From sequence record MN850584.1: a DNA stretch of 64,000 nt; one strand, 5' to 3'. This DNA is from Escherichia phage arall. The position numbers were made by a program, and so were the translations under genes. The notes beneath the pieces were generated by a model. That model was not told where the DNA came from, did no database searches, and saw only the letters and a list, made by a program, of their open reading frames with translations. Position 1 is the stretch's first letter; each line of letters starts with the position of its first letter. Positions 167 to 40,265 of the stretch are shown here, one piece after another.

Positions 167-1360
167 ATGGCAGCACCAAAATCATGGGAACAATATAAAG
201 AAGAGTGTCAACCTATTGCGAATAATAAAGGGATTGAGATCCTAGGATATGTTGAACCGTTTATAGGTTGTGATACGAAAATGATTCTACGCTGTAGGCA
301 GGAACATGAATGGAAGACTTGTAGTATTAGTAATTTCAAGCACGGTAACAGTTGTCCTATCTGTTCTGGTAAGAAGCCGTTAACATGGGAAACAGAATTG
401 CCGATCTTGGAAGAGATAGCACAGAAGAAGGGGTATCAGGTGTTAGGGTACGTTGGAGAATGGAAAGGGAATAAAACAAAACTTGATTTGTTGTGCCATT
501 GTGGGAATAGATGGCAAAGTACAGCAATTCATCAATTTAAAGGCGGTCGAGGTTGTCCACAATGTAGGGGGGAGAATACAAGGAAGGCACTAACAATGTC
601 CGACGATCAACATATTGCAGATTTCTTTTCTACAGGGAAATTTAAGGAAGGCACTATCTTCACTAACACAGGAACACGGAGTAAAGGATGCAGGCATAGT
701 ATCTGGATGGTTGAATGTCCTGTTTGCTCTCATGATGAATATGTTCAAGCAGGTGTTTGTGATGGTAAATTTTACTCTGAAGGAAATAACCTTAAACGAG
801 GGTGCATTCCGTGTCGTTGTGGGAACTATCGGTATACAGAAGACCAGATCACCTATAGGGTAAAAAAGGAAGTAGAAGGGCAAGGGTATGTCTGGGTAGG
901 TTGGATCGGTAAACCGTCTAGAAGTCACGGTAAGTTTAAATATCTTTGTCTTGTGCATGGGGAACAGACAGGGAGGGCTAATAACTTATTAAGCCTCGGT
1001 CAAGGTTGTCCACAGTGTGCTGGTCATAATCAACAGCAATTATATATTAATATTGTTAAAGATAATGATATTATAGTGGCTCTTAAGTTTGGTATAGCTA
1101 AAGATAGTGATAGGCGATTAAATAGTCAAAATAGTTGTAATATGTTTTTTATGGAGCGTATTTGTTTATATGATTTTAGCACAGTGAAACAATGTAAGGC
1201 TGCTGAAAGAGCTATAAAGAAAAAATTAAAAACTGGTATTTTAACGGAAAGAGAGTTGAAAGACGGTTATACAGAAACAGTAAGTGTTTCTGATTTGGAA
1301 AATCTTCAAGAAATTATTACACAACATGGTGGCAAATTAGTATATAATAAGGAGATGTAA
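167..1360 (+). CDS. Cys-rich repeat protein with C-terminal T5orf172/GIY-YIG-like domain (putative homing-endonuclease-like)
   Basis: RBS AGGAG upstream; three ~55-aa modules each ending GCPQC/SCPIC with upstream CxC/CH pairs; C-terminal LYINIV...KFGIAKD...RRL pattern resembles T5orf172/MUG113 fold; motif recall only. Confidence 0.55.
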   Translation: MAAPKSWEQYKEECQPIANNKGIEILGYVEPFIGCDTKMILRCRQEHEWKTCSISNFKHGNSCPICSGKKPLTWETELPILEEIAQKKGYQVLGYVGEWKGNKTKLDLLCHCGNRWQSTAIHQFKGGRGCPQCRGENTRKALTMSDDQHIADFFSTGKFKEGTIFTNTGTRSKGCRHSIWMVECPVCSHDEYVQAGVCDGKFYSEGNNLKRGCIPCRCGNYRYTEDQITYRVKKEVEGQGYVWVGWIGKPSRSHGKFKYLCLVHGEQTGRANNLLSLGQGCPQCAGHNQQQLYINIVKDNDIIVALKFGIAKDSDRRLNSQNSCNMFFMERICLYDFSTVKQCKAAERAIKKKLKTGILTERELKDGYTETVSVSDLENLQEIITQHGGKLVYNKEM

Positions 1361-1912
1361 ATGCGGATTACTGATAAGTATGTGTTCTTCTTTTCGGCAA
1401 AAGATGAATTTAGCAACTGGTATCTATCATCTTTTATTGAACCTTTAGCTCCCAAGTATAATAATTCTATCACAAGTTCTGTCGAATTTACTTGTGTGGA
1501 ACAATATATGATGTGGAGAAAAGCATGTTTGTTTTATGATTACAATATTGCATCTTCTATTTTAACCGGAGATCTAAGATATACAGGAGAAAAAGAACAA
1601 GCATATTATAAGCGACTAGGTAGATTAGTTAAAGATTATGATGAAGACACCTGGACTTCTTTACGGGAGAAGATTGTCAAACGTGGTTTGTATCTTAAAT
1701 ACACACAAAATGAAGATCTCAAAAATAAACTTATTGCTTACGCAGATAAGGAGTTCGTAGAGGCAAGCCCTTATGATTCTATTTATGGTATCAAAATGGG
1801 GATGTGGGATCGGGACGTGGAAAATAAGGATTGTTGGAAAGGACAAAATCTTTTAGGAAAATGGCATACAGACCTTGCTGTTTATCTAAAAACACAATCT
1901 GATATTTCCTGA
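1361..1912 (+). CDS. NADAR (YbiA/DUF1768)-family protein, putative ADP-ribose-processing hydrolase
   Basis: Start overlaps previous stop (TAAATG); N-terminal FFFSAKDEFSNW and internal EQYMMWRKA, ASPYDSIYGIKMG, GQNLLGKWH match NADAR/YbiA conserved blocks. Confidence 0.7.
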   Translation: MRITDKYVFFFSAKDEFSNWYLSSFIEPLAPKYNNSITSSVEFTCVEQYMMWRKACLFYDYNIASSILTGDLRYTGEKEQAYYKRLGRLVKDYDEDTWTSLREKIVKRGLYLKYTQNEDLKNKLIAYADKEFVEASPYDSIYGIKMGMWDRDVENKDCWKGQNLLGKWHTDLAVYLKTQSDIS

Positions 1913-2130
1913 TATTTTGAAAATTTTTATTTTTATAAAAAGGGGTGTGGTTTCATGTACGGAAATCCACCCTCTGAATAATATATCCAGAGTAAATATT
2001 ATTCTGTACTCTGTTAATAAAGTATTTAATTTGTTTGTTGGACTATGGTATCTGATCTTTAAAAGGTATACTATCTCTTAACTACTACTTATAACAGAAC
2101 AGTAAAATCATTTTTATAAAAAGGATAAAA

Positions 2131-2327
2131 TTATTTAAAGTTTTTACAGATTTTTGGATACAAATTTTGAAAATGAAAAGTTCAAGTTTGGTCAAAATTA
2201 TTTAAAGTTTTTGTACGTATTTCTATCCAGATTTTGAAAATGAAAACTTCAATTTTTTAAAAATTCCCCAGTTTATTTAAAGTTTTTTTGCCTTTTTCCG
2301 TAGAAAAATCAAAAATGAAAAGTTCAA
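2131..2327. repeat. Three direct repeats (~55 bp units: TTATTTAAAGTTTTT...TTTTGAAAATGAAAAGTTCAA)
   Basis: Units start at 2131, 2208 and 2273; each ends with TTGAA-N9-TTCAA inverted motif. Confidence 0.8.
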
Positions 2328-2352
2328 TTTCGTGTTTTTATGGGTGTGCGGA

Positions 2353-2409
2353 TGATAATCATTCTCACTAAGAGAATGAGAATCATTAGCAAATGAGAAT
2401 TTTTCTCAT
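2353..2409. promoter_or_regulatory. Cluster of GATAAT/GAGAAT palindromes (TGATAATCATTCTC; GAGAATGAGAATCATT; ATGAGAA-TTT-TTCTCAT)
   Basis: Perfect 7-3-7 inverted repeat at 2393-2409 plus overlapping dyads; same TGATAATCATTCT motif recurs at 12237, 12295, 13148. Confidence 0.6.
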
Positions 2410-2672
2410 TTAGAGAATAACGCGCAGGGGTGGTGTTTGTCTCGCGCTCCCGTGTCCCCTCGCCATACAATAAGAATAGCATAACCAACAACAAAAGCAA
2501 GCGATTATTTTTATCTTTACATTTCTTTACAAATTTATTTTAGACGAGCTACCGGCGATCAACCTTCCAACCAGTGCCCCCTGGTATGTTAGCCCCGCCT
2601 TTACGCCGTGGGGGTGGCGTTTCCTCTTCTGTATGTAAAACAGTATAAGCCCGATCCCTGGGCTTGTCAAGA

Positions 2673-2939
2673 TTATTTTTTGTTTTCTTGCCAGGATAGG
2701 ACACCTAACCAAAAATACATGTCGCCCCGCGCCCCTGGCGGGATCTTGCTTTCCCCGCCGCCACTGCAAGCCCATAGATAACCATTTACGAACGTATCAA
2801 AGTGATCTATCTCTTCCACCTTATGATTGCCCAGGTTGAGAACGGTTTCAACCTTTAAGCCCGTTGCGCTTGCTACCTGGTGCACCGTGCCGCCTTGCCA
2901 GCCCAATGAGTGCATGAGGTGTAAAGTAGTATTTGTCAT
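2673..2939 (-). CDS. Hypothetical protein in GC-rich island
   Basis: 88-aa ORF (MTNTTLHLMHSLGWQGGTVHQV...) with upstream minus-strand promoter-like TTGCTA-17-TATTAT and AAAGGG RBS; local GC clearly higher than flanks. Confidence 0.4.
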   Translation of the reverse strand: MTNTTLHLMHSLGWQGGTVHQVASATGLKVETVLNLGNHKVEEIDHFDTFVNGYLWACSGGGESKIPPGARGDMYFWLGVLSWQENKK

Positions 2940-2985
2940 GGTATCGCCCTTTCTTTGATGTGCGCCCTGGTTGGCGCGGTAGAAA

Positions 2986-3015
2986 GATAATAGCCCTTTC
3001 CTTTATAGATAGCAA
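2986..3015 (-). promoter_or_regulatory. Sigma70-like promoter (TTGCTA-17-TATTAT) for 2673..2939
   Basis: Consensus-like hexamers on minus strand, divergent from + strand promoter at 3056. Confidence 0.4.
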
Positions 3016-3055
3016 GCAAAAAAAAAGAAATGAAAAAAAGATTAAAAAAAAGGGG

Positions 3056-3084
3056 TTGACGTTCCTCACCTGGTAGCGTATTAT
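3056..3084 (+). promoter_or_regulatory. Sigma70-like promoter (TTGACG-17-TATTAT)
   Basis: Hexamers with 17-nt spacer; divergent partner of minus promoter. Confidence 0.45.
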
Positions 3085-3211
3085 TCATCTTGTCGAGGGG
3101 GGCGAGGCACAACGACAATAAACAAAAGGAGGGCGCAATGTAGGACGGGCAAAGGTGAGGATCTCCATAATCCACCGTCACAATAACATTACTTATAAAA
3201 GGTTGATAACG

Positions 3212-3307
3212 ATGATCAAGAAAGAAAACAGCTTGACGGTTGGAACGATTAACGCTATCATTCTAGCCGTTCCATTTTGGGTTGTAGTAGCGGTTATTAT
3301 CTTTTAA
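3212..3307 (+). CDS. Small hydrophobic peptide (31 aa, MIKKENSLTVGTINAIILAVPFWVVVAVIIF)
   Basis: ATG with AAAGG upstream, single predicted TM helix. Confidence 0.3.
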   Translation: MIKKENSLTVGTINAIILAVPFWVVVAVIIF

Positions 3308-3315
3308 AAATATTC

Positions 3316-3371
3316 TTGACAACGTTTTTTAATCTGATAAGATGTATCACATAGGGCGGCAATAGTGCCGC
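3316..3371 (+). promoter_or_regulatory. Early promoter cassette: TTGACA-16-TAAGAT + 5' hairpin GCGGCA-ATAG-TGCCGC
   Basis: Conserved module CAC-ATAGGGCGG-hairpin then AACAGAAGAGA leader and ATG at 3396. Confidence 0.7.
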
Positions 3372-3395
3372 TCATAACAGAAGAGAGAAATAATC

Positions 3396-3668
3396 ATGGC
3401 ATCATATAGCGCATCAATGATCGTAATGGGTATCACTGGTAAACCTATGCGCGGTGGCGGATCTTTCGCTAACATCAATATTGATGGGCGTTTATCCCTG
3501 GATGCAGCGATCACCGTGGCACGGGAAACATTTAAAAAAGAATGTAATTTCAATAAACAAGATTATCTCGGTTTCGCTATTGAAAAAACCGCGCGCTTTG
3601 TTGATTATAAAAGCCCGAAAATGGTTGATACTACACTAAAAGCGCAAGATGTAGCATTTTTGCTTTAA
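3396..3668 (+). CDS. Hypothetical early protein (90 aa)
   Basis: ORF directly downstream of promoter-hairpin cassette with A/G-rich RBS. Confidence 0.6.
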   Translation: MASYSASMIVMGITGKPMRGGGSFANINIDGRLSLDAAITVARETFKKECNFNKQDYLGFAIEKTARFVDYKSPKMVDTTLKAQDVAFLL

Positions 3669-3671
3669 GGC

Positions 3672-3732
3672 TTGACACTGAAAAATAATTTGGTAATATA
3701 TACTACATAGGGCGGGGAAATGGTTTCCCGCC
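3672..3732 (+). promoter_or_regulatory. Early promoter cassette: TTGACA-16-TAATAT + hairpin GCGGGGAAA-TGG-TTTCCCGC
   Basis: Same module as 3316. Confidence 0.7.
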
Positions 3733-3754
3733 AAATCAAAGAAAGGGTAACACA

Positions 3755-4117
3755 ATGAGCAAGCAAATCAATACTATCATGTTAAACCTGGTATCTTTCC
3801 GCGACGACGTGAAAAATCTTCCACGTGATGCAGTGGATGCACGTATCGAAAGCTATCGCTCACAGATCGCAACGCTACCGCTAAAACGTGATCAACATGC
3901 CGCTAATATGATGCTTAATGCTATGCTTAAAAAGATGATTCAATGTGATCTTACCCTGGCTTATGAATATGCTGGCGATCTCTTTGTAACATATAGCAAG
4001 CCCGTACCAGGTATGAGCACAACCGAAGAATTGCATGCCTTAAATCTGCGACAAGATGCATGGGATAACATGCGCCGTGTTATGGTATGGGTAGAAAGCG
4101 GTAAAATTTACGAATAA
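3755..4117 (+). CDS. Hypothetical early protein (120 aa)
   Basis: ORF after cassette, RBS AAGGG. Confidence 0.6.
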   Translation: MSKQINTIMLNLVSFRDDVKNLPRDAVDARIESYRSQIATLPLKRDQHAANMMLNAMLKKMIQCDLTLAYEYAGDLFVTYSKPVPGMSTTEELHALNLRQDAWDNMRRVMVWVESGKIYE

Positions 4118-11987: not shown

Positions 11988-12003
11988 ATAACATTCCATA
12001 CAA

Positions 12004-12029
12004 GGGCGCACAAAGCGCCCTTTCTTTTT
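12004..12029 (+). terminator. Rho-independent terminator (GGGCGC-ACAAA-GCGCCC + TTTCTTTTT)
   Basis: GC stem + T-run. Confidence 0.8.
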
Positions 12030-12117
12030 ACCTCAATAAAGATGATAGCTTTTACCTATCAAAAACGTTCACCGAAAAAAGTGAATAGATCGCGGTATCG
12101 AGCTAATCAAGGAGCAG

Positions 12118-12258
12118 ATGAATAACCATACCATGAAGATCATAAGGCGCTTACAACGTGTTTTAGACCGCTTATTTTTAATTTCTTCATGCAACTATCT
12201 GGCAAAAACAGCCTTTTTCTTGTCTTTCCTCTTAAATGATAATCATTCTTATTTATAG
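12118..12258 (+). CDS. Possible small ORF (46 aa)
   Basis: Good RBS AAGGAGCAG-ATG but lies in otherwise non-coding AT-rich region. Confidence 0.3.
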   Translation: MNNHTMKIIRRLQRVLDRLFLISSCNYLAKTAFFLSFLLNDNHSYL

Positions 12259-12698
12259 CTGATTATTTATGCAATAAACTGCATAATTCAATAATGATAA
12301 TCATTCTTAACTTATGACCATCTAACCTATAAAATAATAAGTTATCTAACTAAATTAAAACTAATTATCTTACTTTTATTTATAACTTACTGTTACTATC
12401 TCATTGATAACCTTATATTAAACAACAATAACTAATATAAATCATTACTAAGCTAACTATAATCTATCTAACCCTTAAAACTACAACTATAATCTATCGA
12501 ATTGTTGCACAAAGTAACTATTAAATTGTTAGTAACATTGCTAAATAATTAATATCCTATCTATTTATGATCTAATCTTTACCTTCCTATTTATTACCTA
12601 ACTAATCATTTCATACAGTAATCATTGCATACAGTAACTATGACAAGAAATATAATTCGCAAGCGTATCATTAGCAGCCTATGCCGGACACATAGGCG

Positions 12699-12845
12699 GC
12701 TAATATTAACGCAACTACACACCCCACATAATAACCATCGGTGATGGTTATTATTTGTGTTTATGTAGCTTGCAACAATTGCAAGCGCAACAATATACAT
12801 GGTATATTGTATTCCCTTACATTGTTGCGGTGCGTTAATATTAGC
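12699..12845. repeat. Nested inverted-repeat complex
   Basis: Outer 15-bp IR GCTAATATTAACGCA (12699-12713) / TGCGTTAATATTAGC (12831-12845); inner perfect palindromes ATAACCATC-GGT-GATGGTTAT (12731-12751), CTTGCAA-CAA-TTGCAAG (12769-12785), CAATATAC-ATG-GTATATTG (12791-12809), IR CGCAACAAT/ATTGTTGCG. Confidence 0.85.
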
Positions 12846-13147
12846 TAATGTTTAGAACATTGGCTATAATATAAGCTGCATATAATAAGCTATACAATAA
12901 TAAACATGGTGAATAATGACCCTGATGATCATAATGCGCCACCCTCCAGGGGGCGCTATGTGTACACAAAAAATCTTTCTTGTCAAGAAAATATTAACAC
13001 TATTGCGCAAAATTATTTACAACTGAATAGATGATTTTTCATACTATTGCCCCTATAACATACCTCATTTGTTGAGCCTACTTTCTTAAAAGCGCAATAA
13101 ATCAGAATTATCTTGATTTTTAGGGCGTTTTATAGTATAGAAAATAT

Positions 13148-13166
13148 GCAAATGATAATCATTATC
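13148..13166. promoter_or_regulatory. Fur-box-like 19-mer GCAAATGATAATCATTATC
   Basis: 17/19 match to recalled E. coli Fur consensus GATAATGATAATCATTATC. Confidence 0.4.
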
Positions 13167-13332
13167 AGCTATCTTCCACGGGTGGCACTATTTCACGCCA
13201 GATCATTTCATTTGGCAAGGTGTATATAGATGTTTAGACTTGCCAAGCCATTGATTTACTTAGAATTTATCTGTTTTGTTGTGAGTAGTACCTTTCTTGC
13301 TTAGAAAATAATCAAAAGTCTTATAAGTCATT

Positions 13333-13365
13333 GAATGATAATGCAAATGATAATTATTCTCATTG
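13333..13365. promoter_or_regulatory. GATAAT-repeat element (GAATGATAATGCAAATGATAATTATTCTCATTG)
   Basis: Two GATAAT hexamers plus ATTCTCATT half-site shared with 2353-2409 cluster. Confidence 0.4.
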
Positions 13366-13809
13366 ATATTTGAGGGGGACGGTCGGCAGAAATCGGGGGG
13401 CGCTGAAAATCGCGTTAAGCACCTCTCGCAAGCGAGCAGTGTTTTGCGGCAAGTTATTGATATTATTGACTTTACGCTTATGAAAAGGGGGTGTGTCGAA
13501 ATAAATCGGGTATACCGGAAAATTTTTGTGGCATAGATATTTATTTGTCTATATTATGTACAAAGGGGTGTATTAAAAATAATAGGTATATATAGAATAA
13601 TTGATAGGGAAATCCTATACTAAATCCTTCATTAATGATGTTCCTATGTTGCTGTTCTTGTAACAGATGAAAAGACGCTATATGATGTGTGGCATGAGAC
13701 GTAAATTTATAAGATGCAAATAATGCTTGCATTGAATAGAAATGTCTATACACTGTGTTTCATAAGATATGCAATATCGCGCATAACAAACTACTAATGA
13801 GAGGTGTAA

Positions 13810-39395: not shown

Positions 39396-40265
39396 TTATT
39401 TTAATTTAAGTAAATACTTACCGTAGTCTGTTTTACTTAAAACCTCTCCAGAACTTTTTACAGAGTCTAAAGTAATCCATTCATTTTTAAAAGCAATCTC
39501 TTCCAGGCATGCAACCTTCATACCTTGTTGCTTTTCTATTGCATGAACAAATTGAGATGCTTCCATAAGACTTTCATGTGTTCCTGTATCCAGCCAAGTG
39601 AAACCTCTTCCTAGTTTACAGACACGTAAAGCCTTTTCTTTCCAGTACATCTCATTTATATCTGTAATCTCTAACTCCCCTCTAGCAGAAGGTTTAACGC
39701 TTTTAGCTTTCTGTACAACAGAATTATCGTAAAAGTACAAGCCTGTGATTGCATAGTTGCTTTTTGGTGCTTTTGGTTTTTCTTCAATACTCACCACTGT
39801 ACCTTCAGAATCAAACTCAACAACACCAAATCTTTCAGGATCATTTACGTGATACCCAAAAATATTAGCTCCACCATTCTTTTCAATATGTTCTTTAGCA
39901 GAATCTAAAATGCTACCAAAACTCTGACCAAAGAATAAATTATCACCTAGCACAAGTGCTACAGAATCTTCACCAATAAAGTTCTCACCAATAATAAACG
40001 CTTCTGCTAAACCTCTTGGGCTATCCTGTATTGCATACTGTAAGGAAATACCAAAAGAAGAACCATCACCTAGAAGATTTACAAAATTAATTTGATCTTC
40101 TGGTGTTGTAATTATTAGTATTTCCCTAATTCCAGAAAGCATTAGGACAGAGAGTGGATAATAAATCATAGGCTTATCATAAATTGGTAATAGTTGTTTA
40201 CTAACCCCTTTAGTAACTGGGTAAAGTCTTGTTCCACTACCACCTGCTAAGATAATACCTTTCAT
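39396..40265 (-). CDS. rmlA: Glucose-1-phosphate thymidylyltransferase
   Basis: [52 protein letters not shown] near-identical to recalled RmlA N-terminus. Confidence 0.92.

What the first reader, a model, noticed from the sequence alone, without database searches (positions are those of the whole stretch)
2420..3100. GC-rich island with divergent promoters
A stretch of about 600 bp is visibly more GC-rich than the rest of the window. It contains one plausible minus-strand ORF (2673..2939) and back-to-back sigma70-like promoters at about 2986-3084. This compositional discontinuity suggests horizontally acquired DNA or a structured RNA.
Basis: partly seen in the sequence, partly recalled or inferred. 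Interest (0 to 1): 0.45.

Follow-up and report, generated by a model that had tools for sequence, protein, structure and literature searches.

The report
Conserved small-RNA locus in phi92-like phage
The GC-rich patch is a conserved control region of a phi92/rV5-type coliphage, read on the minus strand: it holds a small orphan protein gene and, right behind it, a structured small RNA with its own promoter that I could not find described anywhere and that occurs once in each of about 230 related phage genomes.

Summary
Positions 2421-2920 are the most GC-rich stretch of the window (0.50 vs 0.37, z about 4.4). The homologous stretch is the most GC-rich 300 nt of a whole related genome. The 88-aa minus-strand ORF is a genuine conserved gene (phi92 gp224), and the divergent promoters are predicted and conserved.

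The island is a composite:
- gp224 (GC 0.49).
- A GC-rich hairpin, which looks like the gp224 terminator, nested in the spacer of a near-consensus minus-strand sigma70 promoter (P1, 2670-2642).

RNA1 is the part conserved across Stephanstirmvirinae, Vequintavirinae and uncultured relatives. It occurs once per genome in 228 phage records. P1 sits at a fixed distance in 37 of 38 lineages. Covariation supports a 4-bp hairpin, a loop-to-downstream pseudoknot and a long hairpin with a variable tip. A near-invariant 3' segment, AAGGUnRAUCGCCGG, follows. RNA1 matches no Rfam family, tRNA, E. coli genome or plasmid.

Recent horizontal acquisition is not supported. Its function is unknown. My best guess is an early trans-acting RNA; a role in priming replication at the adjacent AT-rich repeats is not excluded. 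Fur-box-like palindromes flank the locus.

The parts
2127..2331 (.). Three AT-rich direct repeats of about 63 nt (GC 0.21), to the left of the locus. All the minus-strand promoters point towards them. This is context, and a possible DNA-unwinding or iteron region.
   Evidence: the repeat finder family D1 has 3 copies at 71-100% identity. GC is 0.215. The stretch is annotated as a repeat_region in phage alia. It is among the two most AT-rich places of the alia genome.
2347..2410 (.). Cluster of about three Fur-box-like palindromes (TGATAATCATTCTCA, TGAGAATCATTAGCA, TGAGAATTTTTCTCA).
   Evidence: The pattern AATGATAATCATTMTCA with up to 3 mismatches gives 18 hits against 1.1 expected, and they lie almost only at 2347-2410 and 12235-13364. 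The cluster is conserved in all genera aligned. The same core AATGAGAATCATT is listed among Fur boxes in PMC3055841 and PMC4481299.
2415..2466 (-). Conserved GC-rich block downstream of promoter-like site P2 (contains GAGACAAACACC). No RNA structure is supported.
   Evidence: Conserved in alignments. GC of 2420-2476 is 0.60. RNAalifold finds no consensus structure at -1 kcal/mol. The hand-drawn closing helix is no better than shuffles, 267/500.
2473..2500 (-). P2: a second minus-strand sigma70-like site. In this window it is weak (TTGCTT-16-TATTCT, 7/12). It is stronger in other genera.
   Evidence: A positionally conserved minus-strand promoter sits at alignment column 306: TTGCAA-17-TATATT in Mydovirus and Certrevirus, TTGACC-17-GATAAT in L009 and L011 (GATACT in L008). 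The window copy is below the scan threshold. Coordinates were read from the sequence.
2514..2533 (-). Two direct copies of TGTAAAGA, 10-11 nt apart, between RNA1 and P2. They lie in an AT-rich linker (GC 0.23).
   Evidence: Conserved as TTTGTAAAGAwwTGTAAAGA in most lineages. The motif is not enriched elsewhere in the window: 14 hits against 13.7 expected.
2541..2637 (-). RNA1, a structured non-coding RNA. From 5' to 3': a purine-rich leader; P1 helix 2619-2616 with 2607-2604; a pseudoknot between loop 2612-2610 and 2595-2593; the long hairpin P3, 2589-2581 with 2574-2567, with a variable tip; and the near-invariant 3' segment AAGGUUGAUCGCCGGUAG at 2566-2549.
   Evidence: The covariance model scores 99 bits, E=2e-29. 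Covariation score is 0.22 against 0.08 in shuffles (0/500 reach it) and at most 0.045 for slid controls; 10 of 15 pairs change on both sides. Locus L039 keeps all three helices with different letters. Indels are not multiples of 3. The element occurs once per genome in 228 phage records.
2642..2670 (-). P1, a near-consensus sigma70 promoter for RNA1 (TTGACA-17-TATACT). The predicted start is near 2635. Its spacer (2665-2647) is a GC-rich hairpin followed by a T-rich stretch, which looks like the terminator of gp224 nested inside the promoter.
   Evidence: It scores 11/12, the best site in 1900-3500, and the same bases are also called as a minus-strand terminator. A match of at least 9/12 lies at a fixed distance in 37 of 38 distinct loci, against 5% at random places. 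Most of the 27 lineages fold a GC-rich hairpin of differing sequence within or overlapping the spacer, with mean dG -11.6 kcal/mol; 22 other promoter-like sites (10/12 or better) in the window give 0 to -7.3.
2673..2939 (-). gp224 gene: an 88-aa all-helical protein of unknown function (phrog_19316).
   Evidence: ORF. phi92 gp224. PHROG match at 5e-58. 21 homologues, with tblastn hits down to 36% identity in divergent loci. AlphaFold pLDDT 93. No Pfam, PDB or fold match.
2987..3015 (-). Predicted promoter of gp224 (TTGCTA-17-TATTAT).
   Evidence: Scan result, 9/12. An equivalent site lies 31-47 nt upstream of the start codon in L002, L016, L032, L017 and L031.
3056..3084 (+). Plus-strand early promoter (TTGACG-17-TATTAT) that opens the long array of small plus-strand genes.
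   Evidence: Scan result, 10/12. Conserved as a divergent partner in L002, L016 and L032. Similar to the early promoter consensus reported for Certrevirus (PMC7344957).

Best explanation
The island is a conserved transcription module of a phi92-like (Justusliebigvirus) phage, read on the minus strand and probably expressed early. It is GC-rich because of what it encodes, not because it is foreign.

How I think it works, step by step:
1. Host RNA polymerase with sigma70 starts at the minus-strand promoter 3015-2987 and transcribes the small gene gp224.
2. That transcript probably ends at a GC-rich hairpin plus T-rich stretch that lies inside the spacer of the next promoter, P1.
3. P1 (2670-2642, TTGACA-17-TATACT) starts a separate non-coding transcript, RNA1, near 2635.
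4. RNA1 folds into a 4-bp hairpin. Three to four bases of its 7-8-nt loop pair with a G-run after an A-rich linker, forming an H-type pseudoknot. A long irregular hairpin with a variable tip follows.
5. A near-invariant 3' segment (AAGGUnRAUCGCCGG) follows these helices. I could not show that it pairs with anything within RNA1, so it may be exposed.
6. I infer that RNA1 acts in trans early in infection. The structured 5' part would serve as a stable scaffold, and the 3' segment would contact a conserved partner: a host RNA or a protein.

What is shown: the composition; the reality and conservation of gp224; the conservation and position of P1; the helices, by covariation; one copy per genome; and the absence of RNA1 from known RNA families.

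What is inferred: transcription itself, its early timing, the 3' end, the terminator role of the spacer hairpin, and the trans-acting mechanism.
For: Composition.

Only the non-ORF part 2514-2639 is kept at 82-88% identity in distant genera, where it is unannotated (alignments).

P1 scores 11/12 here. A match of at least 9/12 sits at a fixed distance in 37 of 38 distinct loci, against 5% at random sites, although the spacer sequence differs between lineages. No plus-strand promoter is conserved.

Covariation, on a MAFFT alignment and on a model-based alignment:
- 83% of cells are paired, against 75% in shuffles.
- The covariation score is 0.22, against 0.08 in shuffles (0/500 reach it) and at most 0.05 for slid partners.
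- 10 of 15 pairs change on both sides.
- Pair 51:76 flips between A:U and G:C even within Mydovirus.
- Pseudoknot pair 28:43 is C:G in 25 sequences and A:U in 8.
- L039 replaces CGCC:GGCG by AGAC:GUCU and the pseudoknot CCCC:GGGG by CCAU:AUGG, and has a different P3.

G.U pairs favour the minus strand, 11 against 5.

The covariance model separates true members (72-110 bits) from pattern-only hits (at most 25 bits).

There is one copy in each of 228 phage records and one in the whole alia genome.

The region is not coding: indels of 1-2 nt occur between close relatives.

A spacer hairpin followed by a T-rich stretch is called as a terminator and is kept in most of 27 lineages with different sequences.

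gp224 is real.

The early-promoter consensus of Certrevirus (AAAA-N3/4-TGTTGAC-N17/19-TATAAT, PMC7344957) fits P1.
Against: - No expression data: transcription, the start site and the timing are predictions.
- No 3' end was found. There is no intrinsic terminator between the conserved 3' segment and P2.
- The fold of the single sequence is no more stable than its shuffles (z about 0).
- The pseudoknot rests on three pairs with one covarying position and one exception, L034.
- The invariance of the 3' segment is partly due to how homologues were found. Loci found through a different part of the RNA show GGUAG changed to GGGAG or GGCAG, and GGAUC changed to GAAUC.
- No complementary target of at least 10 nt exists anywhere in the 147-kb alia genome, and 9-mers are at chance level: 9 found, against 13 with shuffled queries (for the window).
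- Host targets could not be searched.
- Three tandem minus-strand promoters with no minus-strand ORF behind them, running into Fur-like boxes and AT-rich repeats, fit a DNA-level role such as an origin at least as naturally.
Confidence: 0.55

Rival explanations
1. The region is a replication origin. The tandem minus-strand promoters (P1, P2, and P3 in other genera) drive transcription into the adjacent AT-rich repeat region. There the RNA forms a hybrid and primes DNA synthesis, or opens the duplex, as at the T7 primary origin (promoters 1.1A/1.1B followed by an AT-rich stretch), T4 oriF/oriG/oriE, or ColE1 RNA II. RNA1 would be a structured pre-primer, and gp224 or the palindrome-binding protein would be accessory factors.
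For: - Three positionally conserved minus-strand promoters have no minus-strand ORF downstream.
- They point at 3 direct repeats of about 63 nt with GC 0.21. In other genera they point at A6T6 tracts.
- In the alia genome this is among the two most AT-rich spots, and it lies next to the most GC-rich one.
- Clusters of protein-binding-type palindromes lie between them.
- The origin of rV5-like phages is unknown; the rV5 paper could not place it by skew (PMC3606486).
- The RNA strand is G-rich: plus-strand GC skew is negative across 2400-2900.
Against: - Simple transcriptional activation or priming does not need a conserved RNA fold or a near-invariant 15-nt segment, yet both are under selection.
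- The AT-rich repeats themselves are not conserved in sequence between genera.
- The cumulative GC-skew extremes lie at strand switches of transcription elsewhere, at 34 kb and 136 kb.
- A second, similar AT-rich and Fur-box region exists at 11988-13800, so this locus is not unique.
Confidence: 0.2
2. RNA1 is a cis-acting RNA element. It would act on the polymerase that makes it or on the downstream transcript, as the put antiterminator RNAs of phage HK022 do, or as a ligand-sensing leader does. It would control how far minus-strand transcription proceeds.
For: RNA1 lies immediately downstream of a strong promoter. It is a compact two-domain fold. No discrete terminator defines a short RNA.
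Against: - There is no gene on the minus strand to regulate for several kb. The next features are a second promoter, palindromes and AT-rich repeats, then antisense to plus-strand genes.
- No riboswitch or leader family matches, even at E up to 10.
- P2 would make read-through control from P1 redundant.
Confidence: 0.08
3. The element works only as DNA: a set of protein-binding sites and cruciform-prone repeats, for example for a phage regulator or host factors. The apparent RNA helices would be DNA hairpins or coincidence.
For: The neighbourhood is dense in DNA motifs: Fur-like palindromes, TGTAAAGA direct repeats and promoters. The near-invariant segment contains GATC in most members. Watson-Crick covariation cannot tell RNA from single-stranded DNA.
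Against: - A promoter sits at a fixed distance in 37 of 38 lineages.
- G.U pairs are tolerated on the minus strand more often than on the plus strand, 11 against 5.
- A variable-length hairpin tip with GNRA-type loops (GAAA, GCAA) in divergent members is typical of RNA.
- GATC is lost in L056 and L059.
Confidence: 0.08
4. This is the first reader's reading: a recently acquired foreign island, carrying the 88-aa ORF, inserted into an AT-rich phage genome.
For: Composition is the most deviant in the window and in a whole related genome. gp224 has the highest GC3 of 41 ORFs.
Against: - The order of parts and the position are the same across Stephanstirmvirinae, Vequintavirinae and uncultured relatives.
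- There is no homologue in E. coli genomes or plasmids.
- There are no mobility genes or flanking target duplications.
- gp224 homologues are GC-rich relative to their own loci in most lineages.
- About half of the excess GC lies in non-coding RNA and promoter hairpins.
Confidence: 0.03

Closest known systems
Small non-coding RNAs encoded by phages and transcribed from their own promoters (lambda OOP, P22 Sar, P1 C4, P4 CI, and the early small RNAs of Pseudomonas phage PAK_P3). Recalled from my own knowledge.
   Same: A short non-coding transcript with its own sigma70-type promoter in a phage control region. It is structured, present in a single copy, and conserved within a phage group.
   Different: There is no sequence or model similarity to any curated family. 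No antisense target lies opposite or elsewhere in the phage genome. No intrinsic terminator was found. RNA1 occurs in large strictly lytic myoviruses and not in temperate immunity regions.
Pseudo-ToxI, the antitoxin-mimic RNA of Pectobacterium phage PhiTE (PMC3475682)
   Same: It is found in the same phage group: PhiTE is a Certrevirus that also carries RNA1 at 39707-39801. It is a non-coding, pseudoknot-forming RNA made by the phage.
   Different: Pseudo-ToxI consists of tandem 36-nt repeats near 99-100 kb of PhiTE. RNA1 is a single non-repeated unit at another locus. No ToxI-type family matches.
The T7 primary origin (promoters 1.1A/1.1B followed by an AT-rich region), the T4 oriE/oriF/oriG origins, and ColE1 RNA II. 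Recalled from my own knowledge.
   Same: Tandem promoters aimed at an AT-rich, repeat-bearing stretch. A small early gene lies next to them (compare T4 repEA/repEB). For ColE1, a structured pre-primer RNA.
   Different: No origin has been mapped here. There is no sequence similarity. RNA1 has a conserved compact fold and a near-invariant segment, which T7- and T4-type priming does not require.
The put RNAs of phage HK022 (cis-acting antiterminator RNAs). Recalled from my own knowledge.
   Same: A structured RNA of two helical domains encoded directly downstream of an early promoter.
   Different: There are no downstream genes or terminators on the same strand that would need read-through. RNA1 has a pseudoknot, not two plain stem-loops. 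There is no sequence similarity that I could test.
Fur boxes of Enterobacterales (19-bp GATAATGATAATCATTATC, or the 7-1-7 form TGATAATnATTATCA)
   Same: The flanking palindromes match the 7-1-7 consensus at 12-14 of 14 specified positions. One site in the window, at 13153-13167, matches perfectly. The core AATGAGAATCATT is listed among Fur boxes in published tables.
   Different: They lie in a lytic phage and are not visibly overlapping the -35/-10 of a conserved promoter. Binding by Fur is untested; a phage protein with similar specificity is equally possible.

Membership tests
Any Rfam 15 family (4227 covariance models) | A score at or above the family's gathering threshold. | tested here: not met
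   No hit at gathering threshold in the whole window. At E up to 1 over 1500-4000 there was only a chance hit outside RNA1. At E up to 10 over 2400-2700 there was only ohsC at 16 bits against a threshold of 50.
tRNA / tmRNA | A cloverleaf or tmRNA architecture detectable by ARAGORN. | tested here: not met
   0 genes in the window.
Type III antitoxin RNA (ToxI, pseudo-ToxI) | Tandem direct repeats of about 34-36 nt, each forming a pseudoknot. | tested here: not met
   No tandem repeat within 2400-2700. RNA1 is single-copy in the genome. The pseudo-ToxI locus of PhiTE lies elsewhere.
Classical trans-acting (Hfq-type) small RNA | Its own promoter. | tested here: met
   P1 scores 11/12 here and is conserved in 37 of 38 loci. 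This is prediction only.
Classical trans-acting (Hfq-type) small RNA | A Rho-independent terminator with a U-tail at the 3' end. | tested here: not met
   No terminator-like site on the minus strand between 2541 and 2420. None is conserved in other lineages. Only L039 has a hairpin about 45 nt downstream.
Classical trans-acting (Hfq-type) small RNA | A conserved single-stranded seed complementary to target mRNAs. | tested here: inconclusive
   A near-invariant segment exists. It has no complement of at least 10 nt in the phage genome. Host transcripts could not be scanned: a 105-nt blastn against E. coli genomes found nothing at E up to 10, which cannot detect short seeds.
Transcription-primed phage origin (T7 / T4 type) | Promoter(s) directed into an AT-rich unwinding region with repeats. 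| tested here: met
   P1 (and P2, P3 in other genera) point at 2127-2331, which has GC 0.21 and 3 direct repeats.
Transcription-primed phage origin (T7 / T4 type) | Mapped initiation of DNA synthesis or an RNA-DNA hybrid at the site. | not testable with these tools
   This needs marker-frequency sequencing, 2D gels or R-loop mapping. GC skew is dominated by the direction of transcription (PMC3606486).
put-like cis-acting antiterminator RNA | Terminators and genes on the same strand downstream whose expression depends on read-through. | tested here: not met
   There is no minus-strand ORF of 60 aa or more downstream of RNA1 before the plus-strand genes. The only one, 2324-2500 (TTG start, 58 aa), spans palindromes and regions with indels.
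Fur box | A match to the 19-bp or 7-1-7 consensus, more frequent than chance. | tested here: met
   18 hits against 1.1 expected, with 0 of 100 shuffles reaching 18. A perfect TGATAATCATTATCA lies at 13153. In the alia genome, the best matches to a degenerate form of the box, 8 sites with at most 1 mismatch, all lie in the two non-coding regions.
Fur box | Binding by Fur and iron-dependent regulation. | not testable with these tools
   This needs EMSA, ChIP, or infection of a fur mutant.
Horizontally acquired genomic island | A patchy distribution among close relatives, a donor-like match elsewhere, and mobility genes or flanking repeats. | tested here: not met
   Present at the same place in all relatives examined. 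No match in E. coli genomes or plasmids. No flanking duplication. Only the atypical composition is met.
Helix-turn-helix DNA-binding proteins (for gp224) | A significant match to an HTH family profile or fold. | tested here: not met

The most novel reading that the evidence does not exclude
RNA1 is the founding member of a new class of phage RNA. It is made within minutes of infection and uses its pseudoknot scaffold and near-invariant 3' segment to bind and neutralise, or to redirect, a conserved host component of Enterobacterales. That component could be a defence-system sensor or effector, a ribonuclease, or a small-molecule signal; in other words, RNA1 would be an RNA-based counter-defence or takeover factor. 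A second version of this reading: RNA1 is the structured pre-primer that defines the still unknown replication origin of rV5/phi92-type phages, with the flanking Fur boxes tying initiation to the host's iron status.
Probability: 0.2. Interest if true: 0.8.

Novelty: new member of a known kind. Interest (0 to 1): 0.55.

Why it matters
rV5-, phi92-, phAPEC8- and PVP-SE1-type phages are among the broad-host-range myoviruses most often isolated for therapy and biocontrol. Yet the start of their early region is routinely annotated as 'hypothetical protein' or as empty. This work defines a single-copy RNA gene, with a promoter, a covariation-supported fold and a search model, that is more conserved than any protein gene around it. 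That gives a concrete handle on early host takeover or on replication initiation in this group. It should also stop annotators calling spurious ORFs over it. The nested terminator-in-promoter arrangement, and the restriction of Fur-type operators to two non-coding hubs, suggest testable links between iron status and the phage programme.

Tried and rejected
1. Known RNA families, tRNA and tmRNA: none match.
2. A host or plasmid origin of the island: no match. The five bacterial-genome pattern hits are chance, apart from one phage contig binned into a MAG.
3. RNAalifold's first proposal, a long-range helix CGGCG:CGCCG enclosing P3: rejected, because L039 breaks it while keeping the local hairpin through compensatory changes.
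4. A helix closing the invariant segment (AAGG with CCUU downstream): 66% paired, and one side is invariant, so it is untestable.
5. A second structured RNA downstream of P2 (2415-2466): no consensus fold, and the candidate closing helix is no better than shuffles.
6. A conserved plus-strand promoter overlapped by the Fur-like boxes: only Av-05 reaches 9/12, so it is not conserved.
7. Coding potential over RNA1 (minus-strand ORFs 2527-2775 and 2549-2704, plus-strand ORF 2608-2781): rejected because of 1-2-nt indels between close relatives and the lack of any family hit.
8. gp224 function: no family, solved structure or fold neighbour. The afdb50 library was unavailable.
9. An antisense target of the 3' segment within the window or the whole alia genome: none. 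A full duplex-energy scan timed out.
10. A genome terminus at this locus: relatives assemble as circles, and PhiTE is circularly permuted. The 'attL' label in one record looks like an automatic annotation.
11. Identity with the PhiTE pseudo-ToxI RNA: it is at a different locus.
12. Literature searches for a described RNA in these phages found nothing.
Full report
WHAT THE WINDOW IS. The region 2000-3400 is 96-98% identical to Justusliebigvirus phages (phi92, alia, Nernie, EmilieFrey and others). In phi92 the minus-strand ORF is annotated as gp224, a hypothetical protein. In alia the AT-rich stretch to its left carries two 'repeat_region' features. In the complete alia genome the locus lies at 76.9-78.3 kb. 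It sits between a short block of plus-strand genes (ATPase, CapR/T5orf172 endonuclease-like, NADAR) and the long array of small plus-strand genes typical of an early region.

At every window size from 200 to 600 nt, the most GC-rich place of the 64-kb window lies within 2421-3150. Its GC is 0.49-0.56, against a mean of 0.37, z = 4.3-4.7. Genome-wide in alia, the homologous stretch is the most GC-rich 300 nt. The repeats next to it are among the two most AT-rich.

THE ISLAND IS A COMPOSITE. It consists of:
- a conserved non-coding block, 2420-2476, GC 0.60;
- an AT-rich linker, 2477-2540, GC 0.23;
- a second non-coding block, 2541-2637, GC 0.58;
- a promoter with a GC-rich spacer, 2642-2670;
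- the ORF, GC 0.49.

THE KEY LEAD. A sensitive BLAST of 2400-3000 against 50,697 phage records gave 238 hits. In distant genera, the part that survives at 82-88% identity is not the ORF. It is query positions 115-240 (window 2514-2639), and it is unannotated there. These genera include Mydovirus, Certrevirus, Seunavirus, Henunavirus and others on Klebsiella, Proteus, Cronobacter, Salmonella, Erwinia, Pectobacterium and Raoultella. Alignments of loci from six genera, and then of 21 and later about 40 distinct loci from IMG/VR and metagenomes, show a fixed order of parts on the plus strand:
1. Fur-box-like palindromes.
2. A GC-rich block containing GGTGTTTGTCTC.
3. TCTTTACAwwTCTTTACAAA.
4. A core with the block CTACCGGCGATCnACCTT.
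5. A promoter on the opposite strand.

STRAND AND PROMOTER. On the minus strand, TTGACA-17-TATACT (2670-2642) is the best sigma70 match in 1900-3500, at 11/12. A scan mapped onto the alignment shows this site at the same column in every lineage, although the spacer sequence is unrelated between lineages. There is a second conserved minus-strand site (P2) about 130 nt further on. In Mydovirus, Seunavirus and Henunavirus there is a third (P3) beyond the palindromes. No plus-strand site is conserved. Quantitatively, 37 of 38 distinct loci have a match of at least 9/12 whose -10 element ends 64-77 nt before the conserved 3' segment. At random places in the same loci the figure is 5%. The published early-promoter consensus of Certrevirus has the same form (PMC7344957). 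In this window P2 is weak (7/12), and I do not rely on it.

RNA1 STRUCTURE. The single sequence folds no better than its shuffles, so the case rests on comparison between sequences. Reading the minus strand from the predicted start near 2635, the parts are:
- a purine-rich leader;
- a hairpin CGCC-loop-GGCG;
- an A-rich linker and a G-run that can pair with the C-run in the hairpin loop, forming an H-type pseudoknot;
- a long irregular hairpin whose tip varies in length and sequence (GGGGCA here; GGAG, GAAA, GCAA or UGGU elsewhere);
- the segment AAGGUUGAUCGCCGGUAG.

On a MAFFT alignment of 33 distinct sequences, and on a model-based alignment of 34, the named structure has 83% of cells paired, against 75% after shuffling. 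Its covariation score is 0.22, against 0.08 for shuffles (0 of 500 reach it) and at most 0.05 when partners are slid by 1-3 columns. Ten of the 15 pairs change on both sides.

Individual pairs are informative:
- Pair 51:76 is A:U in 24 sequences and G:C in 10, and it flips between close Mydovirus relatives.
- Pseudoknot pair 28:43 is C:G in 25 and A:U in 8, with one mismatch (L034).
- The most divergent member, L039, replaces CGCC:GGCG by AGAC:GUCU and the pseudoknot CCCC:GGGG by CCAU:AUGG. It rebuilds the long hairpin as AGAU-A-CUU[GCAA]AAG-AUCU.

L039 also disposes of RNAalifold's alternative long-range helix. G.U pairs that would be A.C on the other strand outnumber the reverse case 11 to 5. 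That is weak but consistent with the strand indicated by the promoter. Indels of one or two bases between near-identical phages rule out coding.

A covariance model built from the alignment scores true members at 72-110 bits. The sequences that merely contain the 18-nt search pattern, including all hits in bacterial genomes, score at most 25 bits. The model finds one copy in the window and one in the whole alia genome. BLAST finds exactly one place in each of 228 phage records.

THE 3' SEGMENT. Its invariance is partly an artefact of searching with it. I therefore searched IMG/VR with a pattern from the hairpin and pseudoknot instead. The new loci carry AAGGUCGAUCGCCGGGAG, AAGGUGAAUCGCCGGUAG..GGCAG and ..GGUAA. 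So the core AAGGUnRAUCGCCGG is what is really kept, and the GATC site is not essential. Nothing in the window (up to 3 mismatches) or in the whole 147-kb alia genome (no complement of at least 10 nt; 9-mers at chance level) is complementary to it. If it base-pairs, the partner is in the host. Otherwise it binds a protein or makes a tertiary contact.

TERMINATOR INSIDE A PROMOTER. The P1 spacer is a GC-rich hairpin followed by the T-rich -10 and discriminator region. The scan calls the same bases both a promoter and a minus-strand terminator. Most of 27 lineages have such a hairpin with different sequences, with a mean dG of -11.6 kcal/mol. Twenty-two other promoter-like sites (10/12 or better) in the window give 0 to -7.3. 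This fits the termination of the upstream small gene's transcript and a fresh start for RNA1. It also accounts for part of the GC excess.

WHAT IS NOT SUPPORTED. The block downstream of P2 is conserved but shows no covariation. Horizontal acquisition is contradicted by the distribution and by the lack of any bacterial or plasmid relative. No Rfam family, tRNA or tmRNA matches. The literature I could search describes no such RNA. The rV5 paper only marks a 'non-coding' box and could not place the origin. The PhiTE pseudo-ToxI RNA lies at another locus.

MECHANISM. The following are shown:
- a promoter-linked, single-copy, non-coding element with a conserved fold;
- a conserved small gene in front of it;
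- a conserved hairpin nested in the promoter.

The following are inferred:
- that host polymerase transcribes it early;
- that the hairpin terminates gp224 mRNA;
- that RNA1 acts in trans through its 3' segment.

I give the trans-acting reading, together with the anatomy, 0.55. The main rival (0.2) is that the tandem minus-strand promoters and RNA1 serve a replication origin at the adjacent AT-rich repeats. The anatomy resembles the T7 primary origin, T4 oriE and ColE1 RNA II (these comparisons are from my own knowledge). A cis-acting RNA, a purely DNA-level element and a foreign island are less likely, for the reasons listed under the rival explanations.

NOVELTY. RNA1 belongs to a known kind of thing, a small structured RNA encoded by a phage. 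But it belongs to no described family that I could test, and it is more widespread and more conserved than its protein neighbours. It deserves an experimental look. By itself it does not overturn anything.

Noticed in passing
window 2347-2410, 12235-12309, 13147-13167, 13346-13364: Fur-box-like palindromes (AATGATAATCATTmTCA) occur 18 times against 1.1 expected, and they lie almost only in two non-coding regions. The site at 13153-13167 is a perfect TGATAATCATTATCA. In the whole alia genome, the best matches to a degenerate form of the box, 8 sites with at most 1 mismatch, all lie in the two homologous regions. Possible readings are iron/Fur control of a lytic phage, Fur titration, or a phage regulator with similar specificity.
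   Followed up: partly
window 11988-13800: A second long non-coding region, with no ORF of 50 aa or more on the plus strand between 11988 and 13362. It contains the most AT-rich stretch of the window (12231-12530, GC 0.21) and its own short repeats, Fur-like boxes and GC-rich patches. Many GenBank records of relatives start or end inside it (BME3, PD06, PHB05, ESCO13 and others). That may reflect a packaging start or just a convention.
   Followed up: partly
window 2642-2670 and the homologous sites in L003-L058: A promoter whose spacer is a conserved GC-rich hairpin followed by a T-rich stretch. It looks like a terminator for the upstream gene nested inside the promoter of the next transcript. 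It is kept by compensatory changes in most of 27 lineages.
   Followed up: yes
window 2127-2331: Three AT-rich direct repeats of about 63-75 nt (AAAATTATTTAAAGTTTTT...TTTTGAAAATGAAAAGTTCAA). Other genera have CCCyAAAAAATTTTTTCGC tracts at the equivalent place.
   Followed up: partly
L003:1677-1862, L004:1677-1862, L007:1777-1968: Mydovirus and Seunavirus phages have an unrelated 61-63-aa ORF (MExxKVIxSETMVTLxTWE...) exactly where gp224 sits. So the slot in front of RNA1 is filled by different small genes in different lineages.
   Followed up: partly
L017, L028, L031, L034 (the 100 nt downstream of RNA1): In one uncultured lineage the P2 block is replaced by a different conserved GC-rich module (GGCGGUGUGUUAUUAAAyGGCGC...CACACUAG). 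It may be another structured element.
   Followed up: no
GenBank MG065689.1 and MG065645.1 (hits H44, H92, H143): Records named 'Campylobacter phage A110a/A145', with host C. jejuni, are 96-97% identical to these coliphages across the locus. They are probably mislabelled or contaminant genomes.
   Followed up: no
L050:1412-1493 (Pyrinomonadales MAG JBBRYU010000046.1): An 18-nt stretch matching the RNA1 3'-segment search pattern (20 consecutive bases identical to the window) sits in the loop of a 12-bp hairpin followed by a T-rich stretch, downstream of a sigma70-like promoter. The covariance model scores only 22 bits, so I treat it as chance, but the context is curious.
   Followed up: partly
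window 167-1912: Just upstream lie a 397-aa protein with four CapR-homology repeats plus a T5orf172 domain (phrog_681 'endonuclease'), which looks like a homing endonuclease, and a 183-aa NADAR-domain protein.
   Followed up: no
window 3233-3261 and 3316-3343: Two further strong plus-strand sigma70-like promoters (10/12 each) lie within 300 nt of the first. They frame a 50-aa ORF with a hydrophobic C-terminus (3155-3307). At this point phi92 carries about 350 extra bases, and a gp225 ORF is annotated in that stretch of the record.
   Followed up: no
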